From IMG/VR virus record IMGVR_UViG_3300021399_000002, positions 32,001 to 96,000 of that record: a DNA stretch of 64,000 bases; one strand, 5' to 3'. Below the pieces are notes generated by a model that did no database searches, was not told where the DNA came from, and saw only the letters and a list, made by a program, of their open reading frames with translations. Shown in pieces: positions 22,677 through 33,311 of the stretch. A program made the translations under genes and the position numbers. Source of the DNA: a virus. Lineage: Duplodnaviria > Caudoviricetes. How positions within the stretch are numbered: the first letter of the stretch is position 1; every line of letters starts with the position of its first letter.

Positions 22677-22705
22677 TTGACTTTTTTCAAATTTCATGAT
22701 ATAAT
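22677..22705 (+). promoter_or_regulatory. sigmaA/70-type promoter driving a coiled-coil gene and the suppressor tRNA
   Basis: TTGACT-N17-TATAAT with extended TG. Confidence 0.75.
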
Positions 22706-22778
22706 ATTTACAGAAAGTGAGGAAAGGAACTCACCTTCTAAAAATAATTTTTTTCATTACATAAGGAGGTAATGAAGT

Positions 22779-23156: not shown

Positions 23157-23242
23157 TGCCCGTAGGTGTGCGGCTGCACGGGCGGTCTCTAAAACCGCGG
23201 CCTCTGAAGCAAACGGACTGGGTTCGACTCCCAGGCGGGCAG
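23157..23242 (+). tRNA. Amber suppressor tRNA (anticodon CUA), probably Gln-inserting
   Basis: Acceptor TGCCCGT/GCGGGCA; anticodon arm GCGGT-CT CTA AA-ACCGC; T arm CTGGG-TTCGACT-CCCAG; U1-A72 and G73. Confidence 0.85.
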
Positions 23243-23615
23243 GTAAGTTAAAAATATATATGTAACATGCGAGAAAATAGTTCAATTCTATTTTATCGCT
23301 TTTCTAGTTATCTCTCTTACTAGGCGCGAAAAATAGAGAGAAGGTATGTAAGTAGCCTTTATATAAATACTACCAGGAGTCATAACCCTGTTAGCTTATC
23401 CTAGGCAGGCAGAGTTGGATACCAATGCTAGGCATCTAAAATATATAGCATCAAGTCAGCTACCTTGTCAAAGTTAGCACCATTCCTTGAGGTAAAAAGA
23501 GGCGTAAGGCGACACGACATATCGCCTGTACAAATAGGAGTTGCGAACCTACGCGTACGATTCCGTAGTTCGAACCACTAACGCAATTAGTGCTTAAAAT
23601 TACGGAATTTTTTAT

Positions 23616-23644
23616 TTGACTTTTAATAAAAATTCTGATATAAT
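23616..23644 (+). promoter_or_regulatory. sigmaA/70-type promoter
   Basis: TTGACT...TGATATAAT. Confidence 0.7.
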
Positions 23645-23676
23645 TTATTTGTAAGAAAGAGATAAGGAGAATAAAA

Positions 23677-23856
23677 ATGGAAAAAATTGTATTGAAGTAT
23701 GAAGCCGATGATGCTGGTAATAATGATACAATTACAATGGAATTTAGTTCGGAAGAAATGACTATCTGGGAACTTGCAGACCGGCTGCAGCAATTTTGTA
23801 TAGCTATTGGATATTCTCCTACTATGTTAAATACAGTATTTAAAGATTATAATTAA
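23677..23856 (+). CDS. Small acidic hypothetical protein (59 aa)
   Basis: AAGGAG RBS downstream of a promoter. Confidence 0.65.
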   Translation: MEKIVLKYEADDAGNNDTITMEFSSEEMTIWELADRLQQFCIAIGYSPTMLNTVFKDYN

Positions 23857-23859
23857 TAT

Positions 23860-23888
23860 TTGACTTTTAACATAATTTAAGATATAAT
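23860..23888 (+). promoter_or_regulatory. sigmaA/70-type promoter of the tRNA cluster
   Basis: TTGACT-N17-TATAAT. Confidence 0.7.
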
Positions 23889-23907
23889 AATTATGTTGAA
23901 AGGATAT

Positions 23908-23980
23908 GCTCCAGAAGCTCAATTGGTTGAGCACCCGGCTTATATCCGGTTGGTTCAGGGTTCGAGTCCCTGGTGGAGTA
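23908..23980 (+). tRNA. tRNA-Ile(UAU)
   Basis: Cloverleaf; CCGG-CT TAT AT-CCGG; CAGGG-TTCGAGT-CCCTG. Confidence 0.8.
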
Positions 23981-24025
23981 CACCGACAAACTAGGGCAAT
24001 GTCGTTAAAAAATAGTTTAAGCCTA

Positions 24026-24141
24026 TAGGCATATACAGCAATGTAAGATGAAAATCAACATGTTACAAGTTCGACTCTTGTTAGTACCAATAGGTATTAT
24101 AGCTCAATTGGTAGAGCGTTTGACTTAAAAGATATGTCTAG
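24026..24141 (+). ncRNA. CAGCAA-stem RNA copy 1, enclosing a circularly permuted tRNA (Phe-like)
   Basis: Stem TAGGCATAT/ATATGTCTA plus ACAGCAA; inside, the T arm and 3' acceptor TAGTACC come before the 5' acceptor GGTATTA and D arm. Confidence 0.8.
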
Positions 24142-24204
24142 TATCTCGGAGAGACCCGAGTATAAATAATGCGAGCCCATTCTATGAAATGGTAATTGCT
24201 CGAA

Positions 24205-24276
24205 TCCCGTAGGGAGGAATGGATTTCCTCGGCGGCCAGTAAACTGCAACAGATGGTTCGATTCCATATGCGGCGT
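24205..24276 (+). pseudogene. Degenerate tRNA-like element (GTA loop)
   Basis: CCGTA/TGCGG partial acceptor; GAGG/CCTC D arm; ATGG-TTCGATT-CCAT T arm; irregular anticodon loop. Confidence 0.4.
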
Positions 24277-24449
24277 ACCGATATGAAGTTCGGAGTAGAG
24301 TAAAATTAGGGTCGATAATATAGAAAGCCGGCATTCAATGATTGTTATCGGCAGTAAAACCACTTAATACTCGTAAAGAGTGCCCTAACGATTAGTAGCA
24401 TAAATATAAATGTGTCGGGTGCGAATAGGGGTGGAGAATCCTATAATTT

Positions 24450-24568
24450 AAGACACGTCAGCATTTCTTCTTTGCTTGAGGAGCCCGTCAAGTGTTGGTT
24501 CAACTCCAACCCTTCCAATTAATGGAAGGTCGCTCAATTGGCAGAAGCGCGGTTATAAACGTGTCTAG
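24450..24568 (+). ncRNA. CAGCAA-stem RNA copy 2, enclosing a circularly permuted tRNA
   Basis: Stem AGACACGT/ACGTGTCT plus CAGCA; T arm GTTGG-TTCAACT-CCAAC; closed acceptor CCTTCCA-ATTAA-TGGAAGG; then D arm. Confidence 0.8.
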
Positions 24569-24574
24569 TTTTAT

Positions 24575-24650
24575 CGCGGGATAGTGCAGAGGTCTAGCAC
24601 GGTTGGCTCATACCCAACAAGCATGGGTTCAAATCCCATTCCCGCCACCA
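24575..24650 (+). tRNA. tRNA-Met(CAU), initiator-like (C1/C72 mismatch)
   Basis: GTTGG-CT CAT AC-CCAAC; encoded CCA. Confidence 0.85.
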
Positions 24651-24689
24651 ACTCAGAGCAAATGTGTGGCTAGCAACCTACTGCTATAT

Positions 24690-24760
24690 GGCCTCTTAGC
24701 TCAGTGGTAGAGCGGGCGGCTGTTAACCGCTTGATGGGAGTCCGATTCTCTCAGAGGCCG
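24690..24760 (+). tRNA. tRNA-Asn(GUU)
   Basis: GGCCTCT/AGAGGCC; GCGG-CT GTT AA-CCGC; T loop TCCGATT. Confidence 0.85.
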
Positions 24761-24949
24761 CTCGTGCTTTGATGACCAAATGTAGCTTGGCAGTAAATAA
24801 ATATTAATGCAGATGTGGGGTTATGATGTAAGCCTTTACCTTAAAAGACGAATTTCCACAGATACAGACCTGTGGCATAAGGCTATTGACCTGAAATGAA
24901 AGGTGTCGCCCTGGCAGATGGCAAGTTCGAAATAGTCTGCCGATTTTAT

Positions 24950-25026
24950 GCCCTATTGGTGTAATTGGTTAGCACAGTACCCTTTCAAGGTGCAGACGTG
25001 GAGTTCAAATCTCCCATAGGGTACCA
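24950..25026 (+). tRNA. tRNA-Glu(UUC)
   Basis: GTACC-CT TTC AA-GGTGC; encoded CCA. Confidence 0.85.
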
Positions 25027-25182
25027 ATGTAGAGCTGACTACATAGCATTGGGTCCGGAACTGATGCATCAGCCCGAAAAACCTGATAACTAGTGTCATG
25101 GTTAGACACGGCGTGTGTTAGGTATGGTTATGAAAGCACGCAACAAATCCTAGAAATAGGTCGGGGTAGCTCCCCGTTTTAT

Positions 25183-25254
25183 ACCTGGTTCGGCTAACGG
25201 TCAGGCCACTTGTCTCTCAAGCAAGAAATATGGGTTCAATTCCCGTACTAGGTA
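25183..25254 (+). tRNA. tRNA-Glu(CUC)
   Basis: CTTGT-CT CTC AA-GCAAG; ATGGG-TTCAATT-CCCGT. Confidence 0.85.
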
Positions 25255-25474
25255 TGACGTATGTAGCAAAACGCCTCCGGCTCAGCCGAAAAGCGCGCTA
25301 CGCAGCGAGAAAAACGTGCGCTCGCAACCGTTAACACGGATTTAGCACTTAAACTACCACCGGCACGATTGGGAGGAGTGTTTATGAATGAACTTTCTAA
25401 ACGATACTCCATAATCAAACGTGATATGTGGCTTAGCGACAAACGGTATAAAAGAAGCGAAGTAAAGTGCAAAT

Positions 25475-25535
25475 TAGGCGCGAACAGCAAACTTTTATAA
25501 GAACATTTTTGCTTAAAAATATTTTATGCGCCTAG
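25475..25535 (+). ncRNA. CAGCAA-stem RNA copy 3 (minimal)
   Basis: Stem TAGGCGCG/TGCGCCTA plus ACAGCAA; internal AU hairpin with a GCT-containing loop. Confidence 0.7.
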
Positions 25536-25539
25536 AAGT

Positions 25540-26310
25540 TTTGGTAGTATGCGCCGTTGTACCGCTCAGAGCTTGCTCTGGTCGAGGTATTCTACCATAT
25601 GAAACGGACGTCGCGCGATTGCTGACGACTGAGACGCGCGCGTAATAAATGTCGGAACAAGTCGTAAATACTACTTTTGTAATCGGCTTACATGGCTAGA
25701 TTACGCCAAGCATCGAAAGGTTTGGAAATCCAAGGCGGAAATAACACACCGTGCATCGAAAATAGTCGAGAAATACGAATGATACGATGGTATGCCTTTG
25801 CCTTGACTGCAAAGGTGGGAAGGGACTCCAAGTGGAAGGTAACGACTTCAGGACGCTTCCTAGTAAAAAGACCGTGAAACTCGGTAGATGGATTTTAAGT
25901 AGTTTAAATGGCGCGTGCTTAATGAGTACACGCTTTGCATGAGGTAAATGCCAGTGTCGAGAATGGCGCTGAATACTAGTTGCATTTTCCTTGGTAATCT
26001 CCAGTATGAGAAAAAACTATCGTTTGGGCTGGCTGTAAGGCCCTTGGTCCACCCCTACGCCGGACACCGTTGAGATGTGCAGCAATCGCGCCGTTGAGAC
26101 GTGCAGTAACCGCGCCGTAGATGAGTTTCTCTTGACTCTGGGCGGTTCCCCTAAATAAGATTACTTCCCAATACAGAAAAACCGGGCGTTTCTAGAGCGC
26201 AATGATAGTGCGGTAAGGGTTGCATACTATCAGATTTACAGGAGTGATGAGAAGCTACTTCACTTAATACTCTGCTTGGCCATGGACGCATGGCGAACAA
26301 ATCCTGTATT
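25540..26310 (+). ncRNA. Large structured non-coding RNA (about 770 nt, unassigned)
   Basis: No credible CDS; GC-richer than coding DNA; 11-bp long-range pairing 25614-25624 with 26080-26090; many hairpins. Confidence 0.55.
26067..26122 (+). repeat. 24-bp tandem repeat (2.3 copies)
   Basis: CCGTTGAGATGTGCAGCAATCGCG / CCGTTGAGACGTGCAGTAACCGCG / CCGTAG. Confidence 0.85.
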
Positions 26311-26314
26311 TTAT

Positions 26315-26399
26315 GCCCGAGTGGTGGAATAGGCAGACACACCGCACTTAAAATGCGGAGCTGTATAGCGTGCCGGTTCAAGTCCGGCCCCGGGCACCA
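26315..26399 (+). tRNA. tRNA-Leu(UAA)
   Basis: CCGCA-CT TAA AA-TGCGG; long variable arm; CCA. Confidence 0.9.
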
Positions 26400-26646
26400 A
26401 ATTTACGCCAAAAGGCGTTATTTTTATATAGGAGAAAATTAAAATGAAATTAAAAATATTAGTTTTCTTTATTATATTATTATTCATATTATTTTATCCT
26501 TCTATCGCTTATTAAGGAGTAATACAATGGAAGCAATTATCTCTACTTTTTTTGAAACTACAGATTTAGGAATAATTTTATTTGGTAGTATATTATTCAT
26601 TATTGTAATAATTGAATTTTTTAATCATAAGCCAAAATTTTAATAT

Positions 26647-26675
26647 TTGACTTATAATAAAAATTTTGTTATAAT
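26647..26675 (+). promoter_or_regulatory. sigmaA/70-type promoter
   Basis: TTGACT-N17-TATAAT. Confidence 0.7.
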
Positions 26676-26804
26676 AATTATGTACCAAGGGGAGAGATCC
26701 CGAGAAAGAAGAAACTTTCTTGTACGCCGCCAATGAGTGTCATTTTTAGGCGGGATATAAATTGAACTCCAGGGAGTATTAGGAATGACTAACTTCTCCC
26801 ATTT

Positions 26805-26879
26805 GCCTCCATCGTACAACGGCAAGTACGCTACATTCGTAATGTAGCTATGGCGGTCCGAATCCGTCTGGAGGCTCCA
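26805..26879 (+). tRNA. tRNA-Thr(CGU)
   Basis: GCCTCCA/TGGAGGC; CTACA-TT CGT AA-TGTAG; CCA. Confidence 0.85.
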
Positions 26880-26903
26880 TTAAAAAAATCTGAAAGGAAA
26901 ATT

Positions 26904-27125
26904 ATGAAAAAGATTTATGTAGTTTTTATTGAGCGATATACTGATTGTGAATGTAGAAATTGGCGTATAGAAAGAGAATATGTAAAAACGGATAATATCG
27001 CAACATATATTGAATTGAAGAAATCTCAGATTGAATCTCGTAGCTATTGGTGGATGGATTATTGTAAGGGCGCGGATGACCGGCCCGATGTTAAAGCAGA
27101 AGAGCTTGAGATTAAAGTATTTTAA
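26904..27125 (+). CDS. Small hypothetical protein
   Basis: GAAAGGA RBS; MKKIYVV start. Confidence 0.65.
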   Translation: MKKIYVVFIERYTDCECRNWRIEREYVKTDNIATYIELKKSQIESRSYWWMDYCKGADDRPDVKAEELEIKVF

Positions 27126-27318
27126 TATACCAACGGACAAGGCTTAGGCGCATGACAATATCAGCGAAGAGGAAGAGGAAGCGTAAGCGTTATTAACCTA
27201 TAAGTGATATTGAACAGAGCGGTGGGACGCGAGTGGTTGGTAATTATATGGAACTAATCTATCCAGAGTTCCTGCGGTTCAAGGATAGGGTTTTGCGGCA
27301 CCTTAGACCGCATAATAT

Positions 27319-27425
27319 GGGATGTGATGCCAGTTCAGGGTACTGGATGAGGTAAACCGCAAGGTGATCACATAAGGGTAATGCAAAAACCGCCCGCTGG
27401 AGTTCAAATCTCCCACATTCCACCA
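27319..27425 (+). ncRNA. Atypical 107-nt tRNA-like RNA with extra arms
   Basis: Acceptor GGGATGT/ACATTCC plus ACCA; T arm GGAG-TTCAAAT-CTCC; extra internal hairpins; possible GCA loop. Confidence 0.6.
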
Positions 27426-27432
27426 TTAATAT

Positions 27433-27518
27433 GCGTCGGTAGTCCGTAGAAGGTAGCGGGTGGGTCTGTAAAACCCATGTCAATGACTCGGATGGTTCGA
27501 TCCCATCCCGGCGCACCA
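27433..27518 (+). tRNA. tRNA-Tyr(GUA)
   Basis: TGGGT-CT GTA AA-ACCCA; variable arm; CCA. Confidence 0.9.
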
Positions 27519-27596
27519 AATTGTTGTTCAGCTGACAACCCAGTGGATGGATTTGACGCATTCCGTGCTACTACTGCGAGAGGGTTCGCGCACCAC

Positions 27597-27705
27597 GAGC
27601 CCATGAAGGTAGCACATTATCTCATGTACCAAGTGTACAAGGAGTTTTCGGGTGCGCGAAAGCGCATCTTGTGTCCAAATTAAGTTCGAATCTTAATATG
27701 GGCCC
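27597..27705 (+). ncRNA. Atypical tRNA-like RNA (acceptor and T arm, no anticodon arm)
   Basis: GCCCAT/ATGGGC; ATTAAG-TTCGAAT-CTTAAT; internal GGTGCGC-GAAA-GCGCATC hairpin. Confidence 0.5.
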
Positions 27706-27788
27706 TTTACTTCGCAACCAGAAACGTACTGGCCAATTCCACAAATATTGCGGCAAGTTTTCGGGTTCTTGTTAAAAATCCCGTCCAT

Positions 27789-27862
27789 GCCTCCCTAATC
27801 CAAATGGCAGAGATAGCGCGCTAAGAACGCGTCCAGTGTGAGTTCGAATCTCACGAGAGGTA
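27789..27862 (+). tRNA. tRNA-Leu(AAG), short variable arm
   Basis: GCGCG-CT AAG AA-CGCGT; GTGAG-TTCGAAT-CTCAC. Confidence 0.8.
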
Positions 27863-27996
27863 CTTACGCCAGACCAAGGCCGTTCAAGAGGAAACAAGGA
27901 ACCCAGTTTCCATGGTCTATGCCTATGGTAAACGCATTAATTACGTAATAGGCGTCTTGCTCTGAGTAGCTATTACCAAAAGAGACATAGGGACAT

Positions 27997-28068
27997 CTCC
28001 GGCTAGTCTAAGGGATAGGACACATGGCTACGGACTATGGAATCGGCGTTCAAATCGTCGGCTGGAGA
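27997..28068 (+). tRNA. tRNA-Arg(ACG)
   Basis: CTCCGGC/GCTGGAG; CATGG-CT ACG GA-CTATG. Confidence 0.85.
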
Positions 28069-28111
28069 CTTCACGCGAAAAGCGCTAATTCATTTTGGAG
28101 GTATCTATAAT

Positions 28112-28651
28112 ATGAATGAACCAAGACTAAAGATTCTACCACCATGGACTATTACAATTCGTAAGTTTGAAGCCCTATTTGACGGTGATCCGCAGATTGC
28201 ATGTAATTGTAATTTTGGTGGTGCTACTCCTTCCATTGTGCTAGCTTGTAATGATGGCGATAAGGTTGCCGCTCTTCTACAAATTCTACCTGAAGAAGTA
28301 GATTTTGGTAATGTCAAGCTAAAGGTAATGGTTGATGGAACACCTAGCAACCGCGTCTTTAAGAGTAAGACTGACCTATTTGATACTGCTTTTGCTAAGA
28401 ATCCTGCCTATGCGTATTCTGTTTGTCCTGCTGAGAAAGGTTATCAGTGGATTGGCACTACATATGTTGTATTTAACAACTGTGTTGTACAGTTCGCGGC
28501 CGATAATCTAAATGACTGCCACGGTATCATTAGTACTCTGTATGAAACAATTGCTGGTGAACTTCTAACTGGCCCTGCTACTGAAGGTGTATTTTTTAAT
28601 ACCAATGTTGAGCGTGCTGGTCTGGGAATGCCGCTTGGAGAGTGGCCGTAA
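28112..28651 (+). CDS. Hypothetical protein (179 aa)
   Basis: GGAGG RBS before MNEPRL; the longer ORF start overlaps tRNA-Arg. Confidence 0.8.
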   Translation: MNEPRLKILPPWTITIRKFEALFDGDPQIACNCNFGGATPSIVLACNDGDKVAALLQILPEEVDFGNVKLKVMVDGTPSNRVFKSKTDLFDTAFAKNPAYAYSVCPAEKGYQWIGTTYVVFNNCVVQFAADNLNDCHGIISTLYETIAGELLTGPATEGVFFNTNVERAGLGMPLGEWP

Positions 28652-28932
28652 TTAACAATTAGGAGAACTAAATGATAGTTGAATTAACAAATCATTGGGT
28701 TGAAACGAGTGGTCAATATGAAATTGAAGGAGTAGAAGAATATAATGATTATTTTCGATTCTACTTCGGCAAGGGTAAATGGTCAAAAAAATATCACATA
28801 CCAACGTATACTTATAGAATTATACAAAAGTGAATAATTAACAACTAATTGGGAACAAGTTACCGTAGAAGACTTGCGCGATAGCGGACCTGTAACGGGG
28901 AGAGGAGGTCGTAAATATCCACTTTCCGCCAT

Positions 28933-29004
28933 GCCCAGGTAGCCAAATGGAAAGGCTGGAGACTGAAAATCTCCCATGCGGTGGTCCGATTCCACCCCTG
29001 GGCA
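28933..29004 (+). tRNA. tRNA-Phe(GAA)
   Basis: GCCCAGG/CCTGGGC; GGAGA-CT GAA AA-TCTCC. Confidence 0.9.
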
Positions 29005-29115
29005 CTAAATCCTATAATAGCCAGTGATAGTATGGACACTATGGACGCCCTTTAAAGTTGTTCGCGGTAGTGAGAATAACCTTCGCCGTGGCGAAGTAAA
29101 AGAACCACGGAATAT

Positions 29116-29187
29116 ATCTCTCTGGCGTAATGGTAGCGTAGCAGACTCTTAATCTGTCAGGTAAGGGTTCGAGTCCCTTGGGAGGTA
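29116..29187 (+). tRNA. tRNA-Lys(CUU)
   Basis: GCAGA-CT CTT AA-TCTGT. Confidence 0.85.
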
Positions 29188-29191
29188 CTTC

Positions 29192-29263
29192 GCTCGTGTA
29201 GCCAACCGGTAAGGCACTAGACTTTTAATCTAGGTACAGTGGGTTCAATTCCCACCACGGGCA
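29192..29263 (+). tRNA. tRNA-Lys(UUU)
   Basis: CTAGA-CT TTT AA-TCTAG. Confidence 0.85.
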
Positions 29264-29423
29264 CAATAAAGGAGGAATTAGTATGGAAGAATTATCTATT
29301 TCTTGGAAGGAATTTATTCATCCAGATATGAATGCAATAAGGCGCAGAGATGAATTTCTTAATTCTAATATATGTGAAAATATTGAATTTATAGATGGAG
29401 AAATTCATGCTGATATAACATAT

Positions 29424-29499
29424 ACTCCATTAGTTCAGAGGATAGAACAATCGCCTTCTAAGCGATAAATCATAGGTTCAAGTCCTATATGGAGTACCA
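29424..29499 (+). tRNA. tRNA-Arg(UCU)
   Basis: ATCGC-CT TCT AA-GCGAT; CCA. Confidence 0.9.
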
Positions 29500-29630
29500 T
29501 GCCGCTGTTGTATAAGCATTCTGAGAAAGCAGAGGATGCTAGCCGGTGGCACCAACTTCCCAACATACTGTCATGCGTGGGTGAAATAAGATGAGACAGG
29601 CGTTTCACGATGTCGGCATAAATCGTATAT

Positions 29631-29658
29631 TTGACTTTTTATAAAATTATGTTATAAT
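29631..29658 (+). promoter_or_regulatory. sigmaA/70-type promoter
   Basis: TTGACT...TGTTATAAT. Confidence 0.7.
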
Positions 29659-29688
29659 TATTATAGTAACAGGAAAGGAAGCAAGATT

Positions 29689-29919
29689 ATGAGAAATCCA
29701 AATCGTATTGATAGGTTTTGTGATGAACTTAAAGCAATTTGGCACCAGGTGCCAGATTGGCGCTTTGGGCAACTGATGGAAAATATGCTTGGTGCAAGAC
29801 TTCAGGCAGTATCAAATTCTAATGATTTCTTTTATACTGAGGATGAAGAATTGTTTGCTTTCTTTAAAAATTATATGAATGAGATTATAAAAGAAGGCAG
29901 ACAAAATAAAGATTGGTAA
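29689..29919 (+). CDS. Conserved phage hypothetical protein (MR.P.RI...W...PDWRFGQL)
   Basis: RBS, and a motif pattern seen in small phage proteins. Confidence 0.8.
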   Translation: MRNPNRIDRFCDELKAIWHQVPDWRFGQLMENMLGARLQAVSNSNDFFYTEDEELFAFFKNYMNEIIKEGRQNKDW

Positions 29920-30126
29920 TTACGCAATCCACTTGATATGGCTGTGACTACAAGGCGCGGAAAAGTGGCGGTAATCTCTTGCCCAAGTAAGTTGAAACGA
30001 TATATACCCTTGGGATGAAAAGCTTTAATGATGCGAAGATAGAGATATAACGTGAGTTTAGATATGTGTGTGTGTAGTCGGTCTCCCTGTGGCCCGTTAC
30101 GTATGAGTTGACACAGGGGAAGCTTC

Positions 30127-30200
30127 CGAGCATTGGCACAAGAGGTTAGCGCACAGAGCTGATAACTCTGAGGTTCCTAGTTCGATTCTAGGATGCTCGA
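30127..30200 (+). tRNA. tRNA-Ile(GAU)
   Basis: CGAGCAT/ATGCTCG; CAGAG-CT GAT AA-CTCTG. Confidence 0.9.
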
Positions 30201-30306
30201 CTACTAACGTAAATTCCGTATACGTCCGAATTACTACACAAAACGATGTAGTTGATACGGTAGAGAAAACTACGGCGCTATGCTAAGTAACAACGAAACT
30301 TGGTGA

Positions 30307-30377
30307 AGGAGTGTAAGATAATGGTAGTCGCGCGGTCTCCAAAACCGCTCGTGTTGGTTCGAATCCAGCCGCTCCTG
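30307..30377 (+). tRNA. tRNA-Trp(CCA)
   Basis: AGGAGTG/CGCTCCT; GCGGT-CT CCA AA-ACCGC. Confidence 0.9.
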
Positions 30378-30381
30378 CTTA

Positions 30382-30446
30382 AAGACTCGTCAGCAACATT
30401 TTTCAAGCATCTGACTGTTAATCTGATTAGCTATAAACGAGTCTTG
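30382..30446 (+). ncRNA. CAGCAA-stem RNA copy 4, displaying an Asn-like anticodon stem-loop
   Basis: Stem AAGACTCGT/ACGAGTCTT plus CAGCAA; internal ATCTGA-CT GTT AA-TCTGAT. Confidence 0.8.
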
Positions 30447-30453
30447 TTTTTAT

Positions 30454-30527
30454 GCCCTACTACCCCAACTGGCAGAGGGAACTGACTCAAAATCAGTAAA
30501 GTCTCGGTCCGAATCCGAGGTAGGGTA
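30454..30527 (+). tRNA. tRNA-Leu(CAA), short variable arm
   Basis: ACTGA-CT CAA AA-TCAGT; T loop TCCGAAT. Confidence 0.85.
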
Positions 30528-30794
30528 CTTATGTTTATCTTAAATAGGCCCAGTGCGCTAAAGCGATATAATGTTCATGGGTTTCGCGTAATAAGATAAG
30601 CATTGCGCCAAAAAATACAAAGCATTAAGGCGCAATGAGTAAGCTCCTGCTCGTATTATTAAACAATTTATTTATTGGAGCATATTAGTAATTAGAGTGC
30701 GATCGGTAACACTGTAAATAATTCCGAGAAATATAGGAAATGGTTTGATAGCCGGAATTCTGTAATTGGGGTGAGATACCATCCAGTCCTATAT

Positions 30795-30871
30795 GCCAGA
30801 GTAGCAGAAATGGAATATGCTGTTGGCTTAGAACCAGCGTAATTTTGTGGGTTCGACTCCCACCCCTGGTA
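30795..30871 (+). tRNA. tRNA-Leu(UAG)
   Basis: GTTGG-CT TAG AA-CCAGC; 8-nt variable region. Confidence 0.85.
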
Positions 30872-30878
30872 CTTTTAT

Positions 30879-30950
30879 GGGGTCGTAGTTTAAAGGTTAG
30901 AATATTCGGTTTGCACCCGTTTGATGTGGTTTCGACTACCACCGGCTCCA
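30879..30950 (+). tRNA. tRNA-Ala(UGC)
   Basis: G3:U70 pair; CGG-TT TGC AC-CCG. Confidence 0.85.
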
Positions 30951-30974
30951 GTATATTATATTTAGGAGAAGAAA

Positions 30975-31151
30975 ATGACTGTTAAAGAATTAATTGATGA
31001 ACTTAATAAATTTGAACCAGAACGCCGTGTATTTTTATATAATCATGGCTCATATGATGAATCTCCAGAAATTTTAGGCTGTTATGATTCTGCATTATAT
31101 GATGAAGATGATAACGAAATAGAAAAAATTGTAGAGTTATATGAATATTAA
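30975..31151 (+). CDS. Small hypothetical protein (MTVKELI...)
   Basis: AGGAG RBS; 58 aa. Confidence 0.65.
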   Translation: MTVKELIDELNKFEPERRVFLYNHGSYDESPEILGCYDSALYDEDDNEIEKIVELYEY

Positions 31152-31155
31152 TATA

Positions 31156-31227
31156 GGTTCCAACGCTCGTCGGCCGGGTACGGGTCTGCAAAATCCGCGT
31201 TAGTGAGTTCAACTCTTACTGGAACCT
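31156..31227 (+). tRNA. tRNA-Cys(GCA)
   Basis: GGTTCCA/TGGAACC; U73; CGGGT-CT GCA AA-ATCCG. Confidence 0.85.
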
Positions 31228-31249
31228 CAAATTTGTAAAAGAGGTCATT

Positions 31250-31519
31250 ATGAGAATAATTAAAGCTGCAAAAAAGACTGATGAATATATTACAACTTGT
31301 AATAATTGCGGTTCAATATTAGGTATAAAGCGTAATGATTTATCAAATAATGCTATGATAGACGATAATCAGTGTACTGAATGGACTTATTATTGTGGAG
31401 TGTGTCAATGCTGCAATCATTTAAAAGGCTCATTCCGCAAATTATTTCCATGGATAATGGAGGAAGAAAATGATAGGAAATTACAAAGTGATAACTCTGT
31501 GCGGGTCAACACGCTTTAA
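31250..31519 (+). CDS. Zinc-ribbon hypothetical protein
   Basis: CxxC...CxxC. Confidence 0.7.
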   Translation: MRIIKAAKKTDEYITTCNNCGSILGIKRNDLSNNAMIDDNQCTEWTYYCGVCQCCNHLKGSFRKLFPWIMEEENDRKLQSDNSVRVNTL

Positions 31520-31778
31520 GGAAGATTTTGAACGCATTAATAAAGAACTTACTTTAGCAGGTAATATTGTTATAAGTGTAGGATGTTTTGGTCATGCTGG
31601 TGATGTATTTACAGATGAAGAAAAAGTAATGTTAGATGATATTCACAAGCGCAAGATTGATATGGCTGATGCTATTTATGTAATCAATAAAGATGGATAT
31701 ATTGGTGAAAGTACAAAAAGTGAAATAAAATATGCTCTTGAGCATAATAAACCGGTACTGTTTATGGAGGCTCCATAA
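31470..31778 (+). CDS. DUF4406/nucleoside 2-deoxyribosyltransferase-like small protein
   Basis: ITLCGS...H.RKIDMAD.IYVIN..GYIG.ST..EI.YA motif. Confidence 0.75.
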   Translation: MIGNYKVITLCGSTRFKEDFERINKELTLAGNIVISVGCFGHAGDVFTDEEKVMLDDIHKRKIDMADAIYVINKDGYIGESTKSEIKYALEHNKPVLFMEAP

Positions 31779-31779
31779 T

Positions 31780-32025
31780 ATGAGAAAAGGGCGCGGTATC
31801 GATCACACCTGGGAGATAAGGAAATATTTAGGTGATATAGCTTTATATGCTCATTGTAAATGTGGATTTAATTATGCTTGTTCTTCAAGTAAAAGAAAAT
31901 CAGATGGAAGTTTTAGTTTAGAACAAGAAATAACTAAATTATATCATTATTGTCCATATTGTGGAGCGCATAAAAAATGGTATAATGATATTCCTAGAAA
32001 AATAAATAAGTTTCAATATGAATAA
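31780..32025 (+). CDS. Zinc-ribbon hypothetical protein
   Basis: HCKCG and YCPYCG; GGAGG RBS. Confidence 0.7.
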   Translation: MRKGRGIDHTWEIRKYLGDIALYAHCKCGFNYACSSSKRKSDGSFSLEQEITKLYHYCPYCGAHKKWYNDIPRKINKFQYE

Positions 32026-32026
32026 T

Positions 32027-32114
32027 GGTAGCTAAACCGGACAAGCGTGCCGGCTCCGCCTCGAAAGCGGTAGGCACTGAAAGGTGTGGGGTGCAAGTCC
32101 TCTGGCTATCGCCA
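32027..32114 (+). tRNA. tRNA-Ser(CGA) with an 8/4 acceptor/T-stem fold
   Basis: 8-bp GGTAGCTA/TGGCTATC; 4-bp GGGG-TGCAAGT-CCTC; CCGC-CT CGA AA-GCGG; G73-CCA. Confidence 0.75.
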
Positions 32115-32168
32115 TATATTGAAAAAATTTGGATAGCCTAAACATTATATTAGACGGAGTTGATGCAT

Positions 32169-32450
32169 ATGAGAAATCGTGCAGAAAAGCGTCATAATGA
32201 TTGGCGCAAAGCAATTCGTAAAAGAAAAATTGTTGAAGAAGTTTATCGGTGGCCCGAAGGTTGGTATGATAACCTTCATCAATATAGTAAAAATAAAATT
32301 TTTTGTAGCTGTCCAATGTGCCGAAGAAAAACTAGTAAAATTAAAATGAAAGATAGTTATGGGCCTGGCGGGAAAAATTGGCCTATTGCAGATGAAAAAC
32401 GAATTGAAGAAATGAATGATCAAATATTTGACAATGAAGAAGAAATCTGA
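32169..32450 (+). CDS. Basic hypothetical protein (CSCPMC)
   Basis: GGAG RBS; Arg/Lys-rich. Confidence 0.75.
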   Translation: MRNRAEKRHNDWRKAIRKRKIVEEVYRWPEGWYDNLHQYSKNKIFCSCPMCRRKTSKIKMKDSYGPGGKNWPIADEKRIEEMNDQIFDNEEEI

Positions 32451-32456
32451 TATAAT
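32428..32456 (+). promoter_or_regulatory. sigmaA/70-type promoter
   Basis: TTGACA-N17-TATAAT. Confidence 0.7.
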
Positions 32457-32646
32457 TATTATAGAAAAAGGGAGATAAGATATACATAAGAGGCAATTTG
32501 ATAAAATTTGTTGCAAAAGAATTTTAAAGAAAATCTCCTTTCAAAAGAGTCCTGTACCCTTGAGAAACTCGTATCAGATTCCTTTAAAGAATCATGGATA
32601 AGCAGGACCGCGCGAAATAAAAGGGTAAGAGAATAAACGCATTTAT

Positions 32647-32719
32647 CGAGGATGTAGTGTAGCGGTTAACACGGTTGATTTGGGATCAACAATGGCAGTT
32701 CGACTCTGACATCTTCGAC
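32647..32719 (+). tRNA. tRNA-Pro(UGG)
   Basis: GTTGA-TT TGG GA-TCAAC. Confidence 0.8.
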
Positions 32720-32723
32720 TGGA

Positions 32724-32816
32724 TAGGCCATTACAGCAAATTATTTATAAAAGTAAAAGAAATGTCTGTAAAACATAACTGAGAAGGTTCGATCCCTTCA
32801 AATTTAAATGGCCTAG
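32724..32816 (+). ncRNA. CAGCAA-stem RNA copy 5, with a Tyr-like anticodon arm and T arm
   Basis: Stem TAGGCCATT/AATGGCCTA plus ACAGCAA; ATGT-CT GTA AA-ACAT; GAAGG-TTCGATC-CCTTC. Confidence 0.8.
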
Positions 32817-32824
32817 TTTTTTAT

Positions 32825-32932
32825 TAGACCAAACAGCAATTAGGCTCGCTCTTAGCGAGGGTGGTATAAGTGGTAGTACATTTACTGTAAAGTAAAAAAT
32901 TGGAGTTCGAATCTCCACCTAATTTGGTCTAG
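32825..32932 (+). ncRNA. CAGCAA-stem RNA copy 6, with a near-complete Tyr-like tRNA body
   Basis: Stem TAGACCAA/TTGGTCTA plus CAGCAA; D-like GTATAAGTGGTAGTAC; CT GTA AA loop; TGGAG-TTCGAAT-CTCCA. Confidence 0.8.
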
Positions 32933-33050
32933 TTTGAATATTCGCTCTATCTTGGAGCTAGTAGATTGCCGCGTTGGATTGTTCCTATTTGAAAGAGGTA
33001 GAGTAGTATCTACAACTCTTCCGCGGCGTTTTATAGGAGAAATAAGAATA

Positions 33051-33311
33051 ATGAAAAATATAGATGGATATATCAATAGAATACAGACACCAGATGGTAA
33101 AATATATGCACTTACCTGTGAACCACTTGAAAATTTAAAATTAAATGAAGTTTATAATTGTCTAAAAGTAATGGATATGCTATTATATAAATATGCTTAT
33201 GAGCCAAAAACAGTTGTAGAATTTAATTCTACGGAAGAGATGGCAAAATATTTTCATATGTTTCTTTCAATAATCCTTCCAGAAGAATACAGGTATGATA
33301 AAGAAAAATGA
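33051..33311 (+). CDS. Hypothetical protein
   Basis: AGGAG RBS before MKNIDG. Confidence 0.65.
   Translation: MKNIDGYINRIQTPDGKIYALTCEPLENLKLNEVYNCLKVMDMLLYKYAYEPKTVVEFNSTEEMAKYFHMFLSIILPEEYRYDKEK

What the first reader, a model, noticed from the sequence alone, without database searches (positions are those of the whole stretch)
24045..24556. Two circularly permuted tRNA genes with loop-closed acceptor stems
Seen: in copy 1 the order is [GAAAA-TCAAC, T arm ACAAG-TTCGACT-CTTGT, TAGTACC]-AATA-[GGTATTA, D arm GCTC-AATTGGTA-GAGC, TTTGACT]. In copy 2 it is [T arm, CCTTCCA]-ATTAA-[TGGAAGG, D arm]. The 3' half precedes the 5' half, the 7-bp acceptor is capped by a 4-5 nt loop, and the molecule opens at the anticodon loop. 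Known: this is the YrlA topology, and permuted tRNA genes are otherwise known from algae and an archaeon. Inference: either non-chargeable mimics of anticodon-cleaved tRNA, or precursors matured by the phage ligase.
Basis: partly seen in the sequence, partly recalled or inferred. Interest (0 to 1): 0.85.

Follow-up and report, generated by a model that had tools for sequence, protein, structure and literature searches.

The report
Rotated tRNA mimics on phage handle
Two small RNA genes in this rumen-type phage are whole tRNAs written in rotated order, sealed at the amino-acid end and clamped by a conserved "handle"; they most likely partner the phage's own Ro60-shaped protein as tRNA look-alikes rather than serve as working tRNAs.

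Summary
At 24026-24141 and 24450-24568 (+) the order is T arm, 7-bp acceptor stem closed by a 4-5 nt loop, then D arm. Re-joined in silico, they read as tRNA-Phe(GAA) and tRNA-Leu(GAG).

Both are longer than flagged. Each is closed by an 8-9 bp terminal stem followed by an invariant CAGCA(A) "handle", which four other RNAs in the same tRNA array share.

A pattern scan and covariance models found the same architecture in over 60 other phage contigs. Pairing covaries strongly, and 56 of 83 members keep a perfect anticodon arm whose upper pairs form in trans.

None reaches the Rfam YrlA threshold, and the YrlA CGAA motif and the TROVE Pfam domain are absent.

The phage does encode a DUF2828/DUF7788 protein (40343-41884) whose model matches only Ro60 structures. 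It lies in an RNA-repair island, and the RNA and protein co-occur across phages (12/13 versus 0/9 complete records).

Best reading (about 0.6): an unpublished phage branch of Ro60/Y-RNA particles that displays non-chargeable tRNA mimics. Maturation into working tRNAs is not excluded (about 0.12).

Other agents in this scan reported the same handle family on other genomes; I re-tested the key claims here. Binding and expression are untested.

The parts
24026..24141 (+). Copy 1, whole unit. P1 5' strand 24026-34; CAGCAA 24036-41; anticodon-loop-like AUGAAAA 24048-54; anticodon-stem 3' strand UCAAC 24055-59; variable loop 24060-64; T arm 24065-81; acceptor hairpin 24082-99 (cap AAUA); D arm 24102-17; anticodon-stem 5' strand UUUGA 24119-23; A-rich linker 24124-31; P1 3' strand 24132-40.
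   Evidence: Sequence; R1 88.4 bits; independent model R2 84.7 bits; re-joined at 31/32 it reads as tRNA-Phe(gaa)
24450..24568 (+). Copy 2, whole unit. P1 5' strand AGACACGU 24451-58; CAGCA 24459-63; U-rich linker 24464-73; anticodon hairpin GC-UUGAGGA-GC 24474-84; CCG (41-43) 24485-87; variable loop 24488-93; T arm 24494-510; acceptor hairpin 24511-29 (cap AUUAA); D arm 24532-48; CGG (27-29) 24550-52; linker UUAUAA 24553-58; P1 3' strand ACGUGUCU 24559-66.
   Evidence: Sequence; R1 86.5 bits; R2 80.7 bits; perfect 5-bp anticodon stem with 3 pairs formed in trans; re-joined at 29/30 it reads as tRNA-Leu(gag)
24197..24302 (+). Third conserved structured RNA, in the spacer between the copies. 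It has an outer 5-bp stem, an inner 5-bp stem enclosing three hairpins (one is T-arm-like, AUGG-UUCGAUU-CCAU), and a 3' hairpin. Not in Rfam.
   Evidence: Conserved in L043, L046, L040, L017 and L004; RNAalifold predicts 29 pairs, 10 with compensatory changes; no Rfam match at E up to 10
23860..23888 (+). Promoter-like site, TTGACT-17-TATAAT, just upstream of tRNA-Ile. It probably drives tRNA-Ile, copy 1, the spacer RNA, copy 2 and tRNA-Met as one transcript (inference).
   Evidence: 11/12 consensus match. The total number of such sites is not above the shuffle expectation, so this is weak.
25475..25535 (+). Handle RNA 3: same terminal stem plus CAGCAA; the cargo is a small hairpin only.
   Evidence: 23.5 bits through the handle alone
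30382..30446 (+). Handle RNA 4: same handle; the cargo is an anticodon-like hairpin.
   Evidence: 24.4 bits
32724..32816 (+). Handle RNA 5: same handle; the cargo is an anticodon-like hairpin plus a T arm, not permuted.
   Evidence: 26.4 bits
32825..32932 (+). Handle RNA 6: same handle around a non-permuted tRNA-like body, which ARAGORN calls an odd tRNA with a 6-nt anticodon loop.
40343..41884 (+). Gene for a 513-aa Ro60-shaped protein (DUF2828 N-terminal part, DUF7788 C-terminal vWA-like part). It is the proposed protein partner of the handle.
   Evidence: Pfam hits at 8.7e-28 and 1.6e-42; AlphaFold2 model pLDDT 76; the top Foldseek PDB matches, and all ten with E at or below 0.001, are Ro60/TROVE structures over the full length
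37766..46612 (+). RNA-repair island around the Ro60-like gene: methyltransferase 37766-38557, AAA_33 kinase 38557-39024, Metallophos_2 phosphoesterase 39214-39852, RlaP nucleotidyltransferase 41975-42733, RNA ligase (PF09414) within 45359-46612.

Best explanation
The two loci are genes for small non-coding RNAs of about 115 nt, in a large phage family that I could not find catalogued.

Each RNA is a complete tRNA body written in circularly permuted order. The amino-acid acceptor end is sealed by a short loop. The chain is opened in or next to the 5' strand of the anticodon stem: at 31/32 in copy 1 and at 29/30 in copy 2.

The two new ends run through an A-rich linker and a U-rich linker into an 8-9 bp terminal stem. 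The invariant CAGCA(A) follows directly on that stem's 5' strand. Together these form a 'handle'.

Inferred mechanism. The RNAs are co-transcribed with the flanking tRNAs and released by tRNA-end processing. The handle is bound by the phage's own Ro60-shaped DUF2828/DUF7788 ring protein, as Y RNAs are bound by Ro60/Rsr. The sealed, L-shaped tRNA body is displayed as a non-chargeable look-alike. It either recruits or titrates a tRNA-recognising factor, such as a host anticodon nuclease, a modification or processing enzyme, or PNPase. This would serve the RNA-repair genes encoded beside the protein.

Shown here: the RNA anatomy, its conservation and covariation, the Ro60-like fold of the protein, and RNA-protein co-occurrence across phages.

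Inferred only: binding, expression, processing and the effector.
For: Anatomy and pairing come from the sequence itself.

Six handle RNAs lie on one strand within 9 kb of the tRNA array. They are the only places in the 182.7-kb genome with both handle ends.

The family occurs in over 60 IMG/VR contigs.

Covariation: terminal stem 94% paired with double changes at 9/9 pairs; T stem 100% paired; acceptor hairpin 98% paired with double changes at 7/7 pairs. Structures with the 3' partners slid by 1-3 columns pair at 29-43%.

An independent model finds both copies at about 81-85 bits.

56 of 83 members have a perfect 5-bp anticodon stem plus a 7-nt loop with U33 and R37, against a shuffle mean of 1.7.

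Acceptor caps include 7 UNCG tetraloops and 8 extended stems, and show no purine preference at the discriminator position.

The handle also carries non-tRNA cargo in this phage.

The phage encodes a DUF2828/DUF7788 protein. Its model matches Ro60 structures first: phage phiLo Ro60 9kop/9l5y, Rsr 2nvo, Xenopus 1yvr and human Ro60 take all ten matches with E at or below 0.001.

Co-occurrence: records with strong members carry the protein in 34/55 cases. Among records at least 90% complete the figure is 10/13, or 12/13 when DUF7788-only proteins are counted. Control tRNA-array phage records picked by the same DNA pattern give 2/42, and 0/9 among complete ones. Fisher tests on the DUF2828 counts give p = 5e-4 for complete records and 2e-9 for all records. 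At least one of the two control records with the protein (L094) carries handle RNAs.

Precedent. YrlA is a permuted, closed-acceptor tRNA mimic bound by Rsr (PMC4201824; bioRxiv 10.1101/312249). Phage phiLo Ro60 binds Yrl RNAs that have a 5'-3' stem beside a bulge with a short conserved motif (PMC12135203). TROVE proteins with a tRNA-like partner are noted in jumbo-phage RNA-repair islands (PMC7824862).
Against: The Ro60-like gene is 15.8 kb from copy 2, not adjacent.

The co-occurrence test ignores relatedness between phages, and many records are fragments.

One complete record with strong members (G060) has neither protein domain.

Members used for the pairing statistics were selected for terminal-stem and acceptor pairing. 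CAGCA and the T- and D-loop words were forced by the scan pattern, so those figures are partly circular. Only the T stem and the anticodon arm were not selected on.

The strong conservation of canonical anticodon loops with many different anticodons is not required by a simple 'handle plus elbow' Y-RNA model. It would also fit real decoding tRNAs.
Confidence: 0.6

Rival explanations
1. They are true permuted tRNA genes. The handle marks a cut-and-join site: the linkers and terminal stem are removed, and positions 31/32 (copy 1) or 29/30 (copy 2) are ligated by the phage RNA ligase, helped by the kinase, phosphoesterase and RlaP. RNase P and 3' trimming plus host CCA addition then open the acceptor cap, giving working tRNA-Phe(GAA) and tRNA-Leu(GAG).
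For: Re-joined halves are called as normal tRNAs. 56/83 relatives keep a perfect anticodon arm with U33/R37 and about 20 different anticodons. 14/83 caps begin with NCCA. Relatives exist in which a CCA-ended, non-permuted tRNA carries the same handle as a hairpin at about 29/30 (L094). An RNA ligase, kinase, phosphoesterase and RlaP are encoded nearby. M. smegmatis YrlA can be cut by RNase P and receive CCA (PMC4201824).
Against: The genome has no splicing endonuclease and no RtcB. There is no bulge-helix-bulge at the junction: the linkers are 6-8 nt on the 3' side and about 10-20 nt on the 5' side (sequence). Many caps are stable UNCG tetraloops or extended helices, which are poor RNase P substrates. 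The same handle carries cargo that can never be a tRNA. The array already has tRNA-Phe(GAA), so copy 1 fills no decoding gap. Copy 1 has a U27-C43 mismatch.
Confidence: 0.12
2. They are protein-independent decoys or sponges. The sealed tRNA look-alikes titrate host tRNA-cleaving defence nucleases or tRNA-modifying enzymes directly. The terminal stem with CAGCA is only a clamp, or a processing or stability element, and is not a Ro60-type docking site.
For: The anticodon arms are intact with canonical loops. The acceptor is sealed, so there is no charging and no entry into translation. The RNAs sit inside a tRNA array next to an RNA-repair island.
Against: An invariant single-stranded CAGCA(A) beside a stem whose sequence is free to vary is typical of a protein contact, not a mere clamp. 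The RNA family and the Ro60-like gene co-occur strongly. Handle RNAs with only a small hairpin as cargo would make poor decoys.
Confidence: 0.15
3. They are ordinary members of the bacterial YrlA family that serve the host's Rsr/Ro60 rather than a phage protein.
For: Same arm order and closed acceptor. Rfam YrlA is the best non-tRNA match (33.9 bits, E 1.8e-5 in an 801-nt search).
Against: The scores of 33.9 and 17.5 bits are far below the 69-bit cut-off. No member in 12 other loci reaches it. The GNCGAA/CGAA motif is absent and CAGCA(A) stands in its place (sequence). No TROVE Pfam domain is found in the phage or in 5 related records. Copy 2 keeps an anticodon hairpin, which YrlA lacks (bioRxiv 10.1101/312249).
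Confidence: 0.05
4. They are non-functional relics of tandem tRNA duplications, or an assembly rearrangement.
For: The 3'-half, 4-5 nt, 5'-half geometry equals two tRNAs spaced 3-4 nt apart, as in the Lys-Lys pair at 29116-29264. NCCA-type caps in relatives look like former tRNA junctions.
Against: The architecture is conserved with compensatory changes in over 60 independent contigs. The copies are no more than 68% identical to any resident tRNA. Real tandem tRNAs score 23 bits or less against the family model.
Confidence: 0.02

Closest known systems
YrlA (Y RNA-like A), Rfam RF02553, bound by bacterial and mycobacteriophage Ro60/Rsr (Chen et al. 2014, PMC4201824; structure preprint bioRxiv 10.1101/312249)
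   Same: T arm, loop-closed acceptor-like stem, then D arm. The ends leave through the anticodon-stem position into a terminal stem that carries a short conserved protein-contact motif on its 5' side. No free CCA. Thought to derive from dimeric tRNA transcripts.
   Different: Scores are below the family cut-off. The motif is CAGCA(A), not GNCGAA. The partner protein is DUF2828/DUF7788, with no TROVE Pfam match. The RNAs lie inside a tRNA array 8-16 kb from the protein gene, not within 4 kb. Most members, including copy 2, keep a full anticodon hairpin, and the break point varies. The same handle carries other cargo types.
Thermus phage phiLo Ro60 with Yrl1/Yrl2 (PMC12135203; PDB 9KOP, 9L5Y)
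   Same: A phage-encoded Ro60 ring with phage-encoded small RNAs that have a 5'-3' stem beside a bulge holding a short conserved motif. These structures are the best structural matches of the window's protein.
   Different: phiLo Yrl RNAs carry CGAA, sit directly upstream of the gene and are not described as tRNA-shaped. Sequence identity of the proteins is about 14-16%.
Circularly permuted tRNA genes of Cyanidioschyzon merolae and Thermofilum pendens (cited in bioRxiv 10.1101/312249)
   Same: The 3' half precedes the 5' half, the acceptor stem is initially closed, and the ends pair with each other. Re-joining gives a normal tRNA.
   Different: Those use a bulge-helix-bulge cut by the splicing endonuclease and pass through a circular intermediate. 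Here there is no such motif and no such enzyme, and the ends carry a conserved handle shared with non-tRNA cargo.
ROT/TROVE protein with a tRNA-like partner in jumbo-phage RNA-repair islands (Iyer et al. 2021, PMC7824862)
   Same: Same gene neighbourhood logic: RNA ligase, kinase, phosphoesterase and RlaP together with a Ro-like RNA-binding protein.
   Different: That survey names the protein class only. The RNA partners, their handle and their permuted whole-tRNA form are not described there.

Membership tests
YrlA (Rfam RF02553) | Arm order: T arm, loop-closed acceptor-like stem, D arm, with a terminal 5'-3' stem | tested here: met
   Sequence; the cmscan alignment to YrlA covers these arms; covariation
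YrlA (Rfam RF02553) | Score at or above the curated gathering threshold (69 bits) | tested here: not met
   33.9 bits (copy 1) and 17.5 bits (copy 2); 33.9 is the best in the whole genome; no YrlA hit in 12 other member-bearing loci
YrlA (Rfam RF02553) | GNCGAAN0-1G (CGAA) Rsr-binding motif near the 5' end (PMC4201824) | tested here: not met
   No CGAA in 24026-24060 or 24450-24490; the conserved word is CAGCA(A)
YrlA (Rfam RF02553) | Encoded within about 4 kb of a TROVE-domain Ro60 gene, on the same strand | tested here: not met
   No PF05731 match in the genome. The Ro60-shaped DUF2828 gene is on the same strand but 15.8 kb from copy 2.
YrlA (Rfam RF02553) | No anticodon loop (bioRxiv 10.1101/312249) | tested here: not met
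   Copy 2 keeps GC-UUGAGGA-GC; 56/83 relatives keep a full anticodon arm. In copy 1 the seven loop nucleotides remain but are not closed into a loop.
Ro60/Y-RNA type ribonucleoprotein (functional class) | A Ro60-shaped ring protein (HEAT-repeat ring plus vWA) is encoded | tested here: met
   DUF2828+DUF7788 protein; model pLDDT 76, pTM 0.64; the top Foldseek matches are all Ro60/TROVE, TM up to 0.57-0.62
Ro60/Y-RNA type ribonucleoprotein (functional class) | RNA with a terminal 5'-3' stem and an adjacent conserved single-stranded motif on the 5' strand | tested here: met
   Six copies in this genome; the stem covaries while CAGCA stays fixed. Caveat: CAGCA was part of the scan pattern.
Ro60/Y-RNA type ribonucleoprotein (functional class) | RNA and protein genes co-occur across genomes | tested here: met
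   DUF2828: 34/55 against 2/42 records; complete records 10/13 against 0/9. Counting DUF7788-only proteins raises complete records to 12/13. Not corrected for relatedness.
Ro60/Y-RNA type ribonucleoprotein (functional class) | Physical binding of the RNA by the protein | not testable with these tools
   No RNA-protein docking tool or experimental data were available
Circularly permuted tRNA genes (algal/archaeal type) | The 3' half precedes the 5' half, and re-joining gives a canonical tRNA | tested here: met
   ARAGORN: tRNA-Phe(gaa) 73 nt and tRNA-Leu(gag) 75 nt after re-joining; nothing in native order
Circularly permuted tRNA genes (algal/archaeal type) | Bulge-helix-bulge motif formed by the leader and trailer at the junction | tested here: not met
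   Read from the sequence: the junction has 6-8 nt (3' side) and about 10-20 nt (5' side) linkers and then an 8-9 bp stem. There are no 3-nt bulges flanking a 4-bp helix.
Circularly permuted tRNA genes (algal/archaeal type) | tRNA splicing endonuclease available | tested here: not met
   No PF01974 match in the phage genome. The host is unknown; bacteria are not known to have the enzyme.
Circularly permuted tRNA genes (algal/archaeal type) | Circular intermediate and a mature, CCA-ended, charged tRNA | not testable with these tools

The most novel reading that the evidence does not exclude
The handle could be a protein-guided splice and ligation site. In that reading, phages would have their own endonuclease-independent route for maturing permuted and handle-interrupted tRNA genes. 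The Ro60-like ring would hold the handle, and the neighbouring kinase, phosphoesterase, RlaP and RNA ligase would remove it. The same genes would then yield either sealed decoys or working tRNAs with fast-changing anticodons, depending on which ends are processed. This would be the first permuted or split tRNA maturation system outside archaea and eukaryotes.
Probability: 0.1. Interest if true: 0.95.

Novelty: new variant of a known kind. Interest (0 to 1): 0.72.

Why it matters
Ro60 and its Y RNAs are conserved from bacteria to humans, yet what the tRNA-like part of bacterial Y RNAs does is still unknown.

Here a large phage family puts whole tRNAs, anticodon arm included, on a different conserved handle. 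It pairs them with a divergent Ro60-shaped protein and places both beside tRNA-repair enzymes. This links Ro60-type particles directly to the phage-host conflict over tRNAs.

The family also supplies hundreds of natural variants: different anticodons, break points, caps and cargo. These could be used to work out what the tRNA-shaped module recognises.

The permuted, interrupted and hairpin-only forms side by side also appear to show how such mimics arise from tandem tRNA genes.

Practically, these loci are missed by tRNA finders and by Rfam, so phage tRNA arrays are under-annotated.

Tried and rejected
A GenBank phage search with the 801-nt region found only generic tRNA similarity, with no relative covering the elements.

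The following Pfam families are absent from the phage genome: TROVE, RtcB, tRNA splicing endonuclease and CCA-adding enzyme.

A generic 'CAGCA plus any 7-bp stem' scan was too permissive: 37 hits against about 17 in shuffles. It was replaced by the specific two-ended pattern.

I considered a tRNA with a large intron, made of copy 1's 5' half and copy 2's 3' half. I rejected it because GGUAUUA cannot pair with CCUUCCA.

I considered tmRNA or two-piece tmRNA. ARAGORN and Rfam find none.

I considered small self-cleaving ribozymes and integron attC-like ends for the handle. There is no Rfam match and the conserved words do not fit (and reading the sequence).

Literature searches for permuted tRNAs in phages, DUF2828, and YrlA with phage found no description of this family.

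That DOI is the YrlA structure preprint, and I did not test the amoeba comparison.

Complex prediction was not used: it takes proteins only, and no protein-protein claim is made.
Full report
WHAT IS THERE. The window is bases 32001-96000 of a 182,655-bp IMG/VR phage record with direct terminal repeats. A tRNA array of 24 genes runs from 23157 to 34065 on the + strand. It also holds ROOL, cow-rumen-3 and cow-rumen-4 RNAs.

The flagged span lies between tRNA-Ile(UAU), which ends at 23981, and tRNA-Met, which starts at 24575. In both copies a T arm is followed by a 7-nt strand, a 4-5 nt loop, the perfectly complementary 7-nt strand, two bases and a D arm.

ARAGORN and the Rfam tRNA model see nothing there in native order. 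After re-joining the halves inside a script, ARAGORN calls tRNA-Phe(gaa), 73 nt, for copy 1 and tRNA-Leu(gag), 75 nt, for copy 2.

THE UNITS ARE LARGER AND CARRY A HANDLE. An earlier first-stage note on this window pointed to a shared terminal stem, and I checked it.

Copy 1 runs from 24026 to 24141. UAGGCAUAU pairs with AUAUGUCUA, and CAGCAA follows the 5' strand after one A. Copy 2 runs from 24450 to 24568. AGACACGU pairs with ACGUGUCU, and CAGCA follows directly.

Four more RNAs in the same array have the same AGRC...CAGCA(A) start and a GYCUWG end that pairs with it, but carry other cargo: 25475-25535, 30382-30446, 32724-32816 and 32825-32932. These six are the only places in the whole genome with both ends. 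All lie on the + strand within 9 kb.

THE BREAK POINT. In copy 1, UUUGA (24119-23, tRNA positions 27-31) pairs in trans with UCAAC (24055-59, positions 39-43), with one U-C mismatch. The seven bases before UCAAC, AUGAAAA, have the form of an anticodon loop: U33, GAA, A37. The chain is therefore open at 31/32.

In copy 2, CGG (24550-52) pairs in trans with CCG (24485-87). This helix stacks on the hairpin GC-UUGAGGA-GC (24474-84). Together they make a perfect 5-bp anticodon stem and a 7-nt loop with U33, anticodon GAG and G37. The chain is open at 29/30.

A WIDESPREAD FAMILY. A pattern scan of IMG/VR (CAGCA, T loop and D loop with gaps) returned at least 118 loci. About 45 of them combine a 7/7 closed acceptor hairpin with an 8-12 bp terminal stem and a total length of 101-136 nt, mostly 112-122. 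The rest are ordinary adjacent tRNAs.

On a 39-sequence alignment the terminal stem is 94% paired, with double changes at all 9 pairs. The T stem is 100% paired. The acceptor hairpin is 98% paired, with double changes at all 7 pairs. Structures with the 3' partners slid by 1-3 columns pair at only 29-43%.

One caveat applies. I selected members for terminal-stem and acceptor pairing, and the pattern fixed CAGCA and the loop words. Only the T stem and the anticodon region are free of selection.

A covariance model then found 185 hits (E below 1e-3) in 844 kb of these loci. Many have other D- and T-loop sequences, there are several per contig, and some form tandem runs. A second model, built only from other contigs' members, recovers the two window copies at 84.7 and 80.7 bits. 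The window's real neighbouring tRNA pairs reach at most 23 bits.

Across 83 parsed members, 56 have a perfect 5-bp anticodon stem plus a 7-nt loop with U33 and R37 when 0-5 of the top pairs are allowed to form in trans. Shuffled controls average 1.7 with a maximum of 6. The break falls at 29/30 in 22 members, 26/27 in 15 and 28/29 in 13. About 20 different anticodons occur.

Acceptor caps are mostly 3-5 nt. Seven are UNCG tetraloops, eight extend the helix by two or more pairs, and 14 begin with NCCA.

The two copies are no more than 68% identical to any resident tRNA. They are therefore not recent rearrangements.

RELATION TO YrlA. Rfam's YrlA model is the only non-tRNA family that touches the region, at 33.9 bits for copy 1 and 17.5 for copy 2 against a cut-off of 69. 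No YrlA hit reaches the cut-off in 12 other member-bearing loci.

YrlA is defined by the same arm order, a GNCGAA motif near the 5' end, and a position within 4 kb of a TROVE gene (PMC4201824). It lacks an anticodon loop (bioRxiv 10.1101/312249). Here the arm order is met. The motif, the score, the TROVE neighbour and the missing anticodon loop are not.

These RNAs work like YrlA in outline but are not members of that family.

THE PROTEIN PARTNER. Earlier scan reports on other genomes named a Ro60-shaped DUF2828 protein as the partner, and I tested this here.

The phage has no TROVE Pfam match. It does encode a 513-aa protein with DUF2828 and DUF7788 at 40343-41884 on the same strand.

Its AlphaFold2 model (43-sequence alignment, pLDDT 76, pTM 0.64) matches Ro60/TROVE structures first, over its full length. 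These are phage phiLo Ro60 (9KOP, 9L5Y), D. radiodurans Rsr (2NVO), Xenopus Ro (1YVR) and human Ro60. vWA domains alone come only after them.

Its neighbours are a methyltransferase, an AAA_33 kinase, a Metallophos_2 phosphoesterase, an RlaP nucleotidyltransferase and, 3.5 kb further on, an RNA ligase. This is the RNA-repair gene set described for jumbo phages, where a ROT/TROVE protein 'with a tRNA-like partner' is mentioned (PMC7824862).

CO-OCCURRENCE. Of 55 records that hold strong family members, 34 carry DUF2828. Among records at least 90% complete the count is 10 of 13, and 12 of 13 when DUF7788-only proteins are counted.

The control set is 42 phage records found by the same DNA pattern but holding only ordinary adjacent tRNAs. 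Two of these carry the protein, and none of the nine complete ones does. Fisher tests on the DUF2828 counts give p = 5e-4 for complete records and 2e-9 for all records.

One of the two control records with the protein, L094, turned out to carry handle RNAs. It holds a run of CCA-ended, non-permuted tRNAs in which the handle is a closed hairpin inserted at about 29/30. The other, L077, has weak model hits that I did not resolve.

The test does not correct for relatedness, and many records are fragments.

HOW IT MOST LIKELY WORKS. A strong promoter-like site (TTGACT-17-TATAAT, 23860-88) precedes tRNA-Ile, and copy 2 ends 7 nt before tRNA-Met. The RNAs are therefore probably co-transcribed with the tRNAs and freed by tRNA-end processing (inference).

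The stem sequence varies freely while CAGCA(A) stays fixed. The handle is thus the likely docking site for the Ro60-shaped ring. This parallels the stem-plus-CGAA-bulge of phiLo Yrl RNAs, which bind that phage's Ro60 with nanomolar affinity and bridge it to host PNPase (PMC12135203).

The sealed tRNA body cannot be charged. It keeps the elbow and often the anticodon arm. It is suited to recruit or soak up a factor that reads tRNA shape and anticodon, such as a host anticodon nuclease, a modification or processing enzyme, or PNPase. The adjacent repair genes point to the conflict over tRNA cleavage.

I put this reading at about 0.6.

RIVALS.
- For: intact anticodon arms, NCCA caps, the L094-type CCA-ended forms and the ligase island.
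- Against: no splicing endonuclease or RtcB, no bulge-helix-bulge, tetraloop and extended caps, non-tRNA cargo on the same handle, and a resident tRNA-Phe(GAA) that makes copy 1 redundant.

The other rivals are protein-independent decoys (0.15), ordinary YrlA serving host Rsr (0.05), and relics or assembly error (0.02). The last is refuted by conservation.

The NCCA caps and the L094 arrangement suggest that the permuted form arose from tandem repeats of handle-bearing tRNA genes. This echoes the dimeric-tRNA origin proposed for YrlA (bioRxiv 10.1101/312249).

NOVELTY. I found no description of this handle, of permuted whole tRNAs in phages, or of a role for DUF2828, and no Rfam family covers it.

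Because Ro60/Y-RNA particles and YrlA-type tRNA mimicry are known, I class it as a new variant of a known kind.

Other agents in this scan reported the same handle family on at least 11 other genomes. I re-tested the fold, the co-occurrence and the RNA anatomy independently on this window.

NOT DONE. There is no binding test and no phylogeny-aware statistics.

Noticed in passing
window 24197-24302 (+): The spacer between the two copies holds a third conserved structured RNA. It has an outer stem, an inner stem enclosing three hairpins (one a T-arm look-alike, AUGG-UUCGAUU-CCAU) and a 3' hairpin. It is conserved in five other contigs, with compensatory changes at 10 of 29 pairs, and has no Rfam match.
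   Followed up: partly
window 25475-25535, 30382-30446, 32724-32816, 32825-32932 (+): Four more RNAs carry the same terminal stem and CAGCAA handle but different cargo: a plain hairpin, an anticodon-like hairpin, an anticodon hairpin plus T arm, and a non-permuted tRNA-like body with a 6-nt anticodon loop.
   Followed up: partly
L094:322-726 (+): A run of CCA-ended, non-permuted tRNAs in which the handle sits as a closed hairpin at about position 29/30 of the anticodon stem. This is the circular permutation of the window's form. The same contig encodes a DUF2828/DUF7788 protein.
   Followed up: partly
window 37766-46612 (+): RNA-repair island: methyltransferase, AAA_33 kinase, Metallophos_2 phosphoesterase, Ro60-shaped DUF2828/DUF7788 protein, RlaP nucleotidyltransferase and an RNA ligase (PF09414). 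The genome has no RtcB and no CCA-adding enzyme.
   Followed up: partly
window 23157-23242 (+) and ORFs 15000-40000: The first tRNA of the array has anticodon CUA (called tRNA-Pyl by ARAGORN), so it reads the amber stop codon. Table-11 ORFs around the array are short. The phage may therefore read TAG as an amino acid in some genes.
   Followed up: no
window 22677-22705, 23616-23644, 23860-23888 (+): Three promoter-like sites share the same TTGACT-17-TATAAT form (11/12 matches) at the start of the tRNA array. Two of them have a TG extension.
   Followed up: no
L089:5219-5990 (-), same as L098:3753-4524 (+): Five permuted tRNA-like units stand in tandem. Three of the four aligned units lack CAGCA and instead share a different word (GAUAC-UU) after the terminal stem. 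This may be a second handle type.
   Followed up: no
window 22710-22775, 25910-26053, 34551-35130 (+); L068, L040, L011, L017, L037: cow-rumen-4, cow-rumen-3 and ROOL RNAs lie in the same tRNA array as the handle RNAs. cow-rumen-3, cow-rumen-4 and RAGATH-33 recur in several other member-bearing loci.
   Followed up: no
copy-2-type members (L004, L017, L043, L046, L050, L054, L084, L103, L111): The anticodon-like loop in this subgroup is always purine-rich, with G37 and A38 (UUGAGGA, UUUGGGA, UUAGGGA, UUGGGGA, AUAGGGA). The anticodons are therefore limited to GAG and NGG, and the loops also resemble a Shine-Dalgarno word.
   Followed up: no
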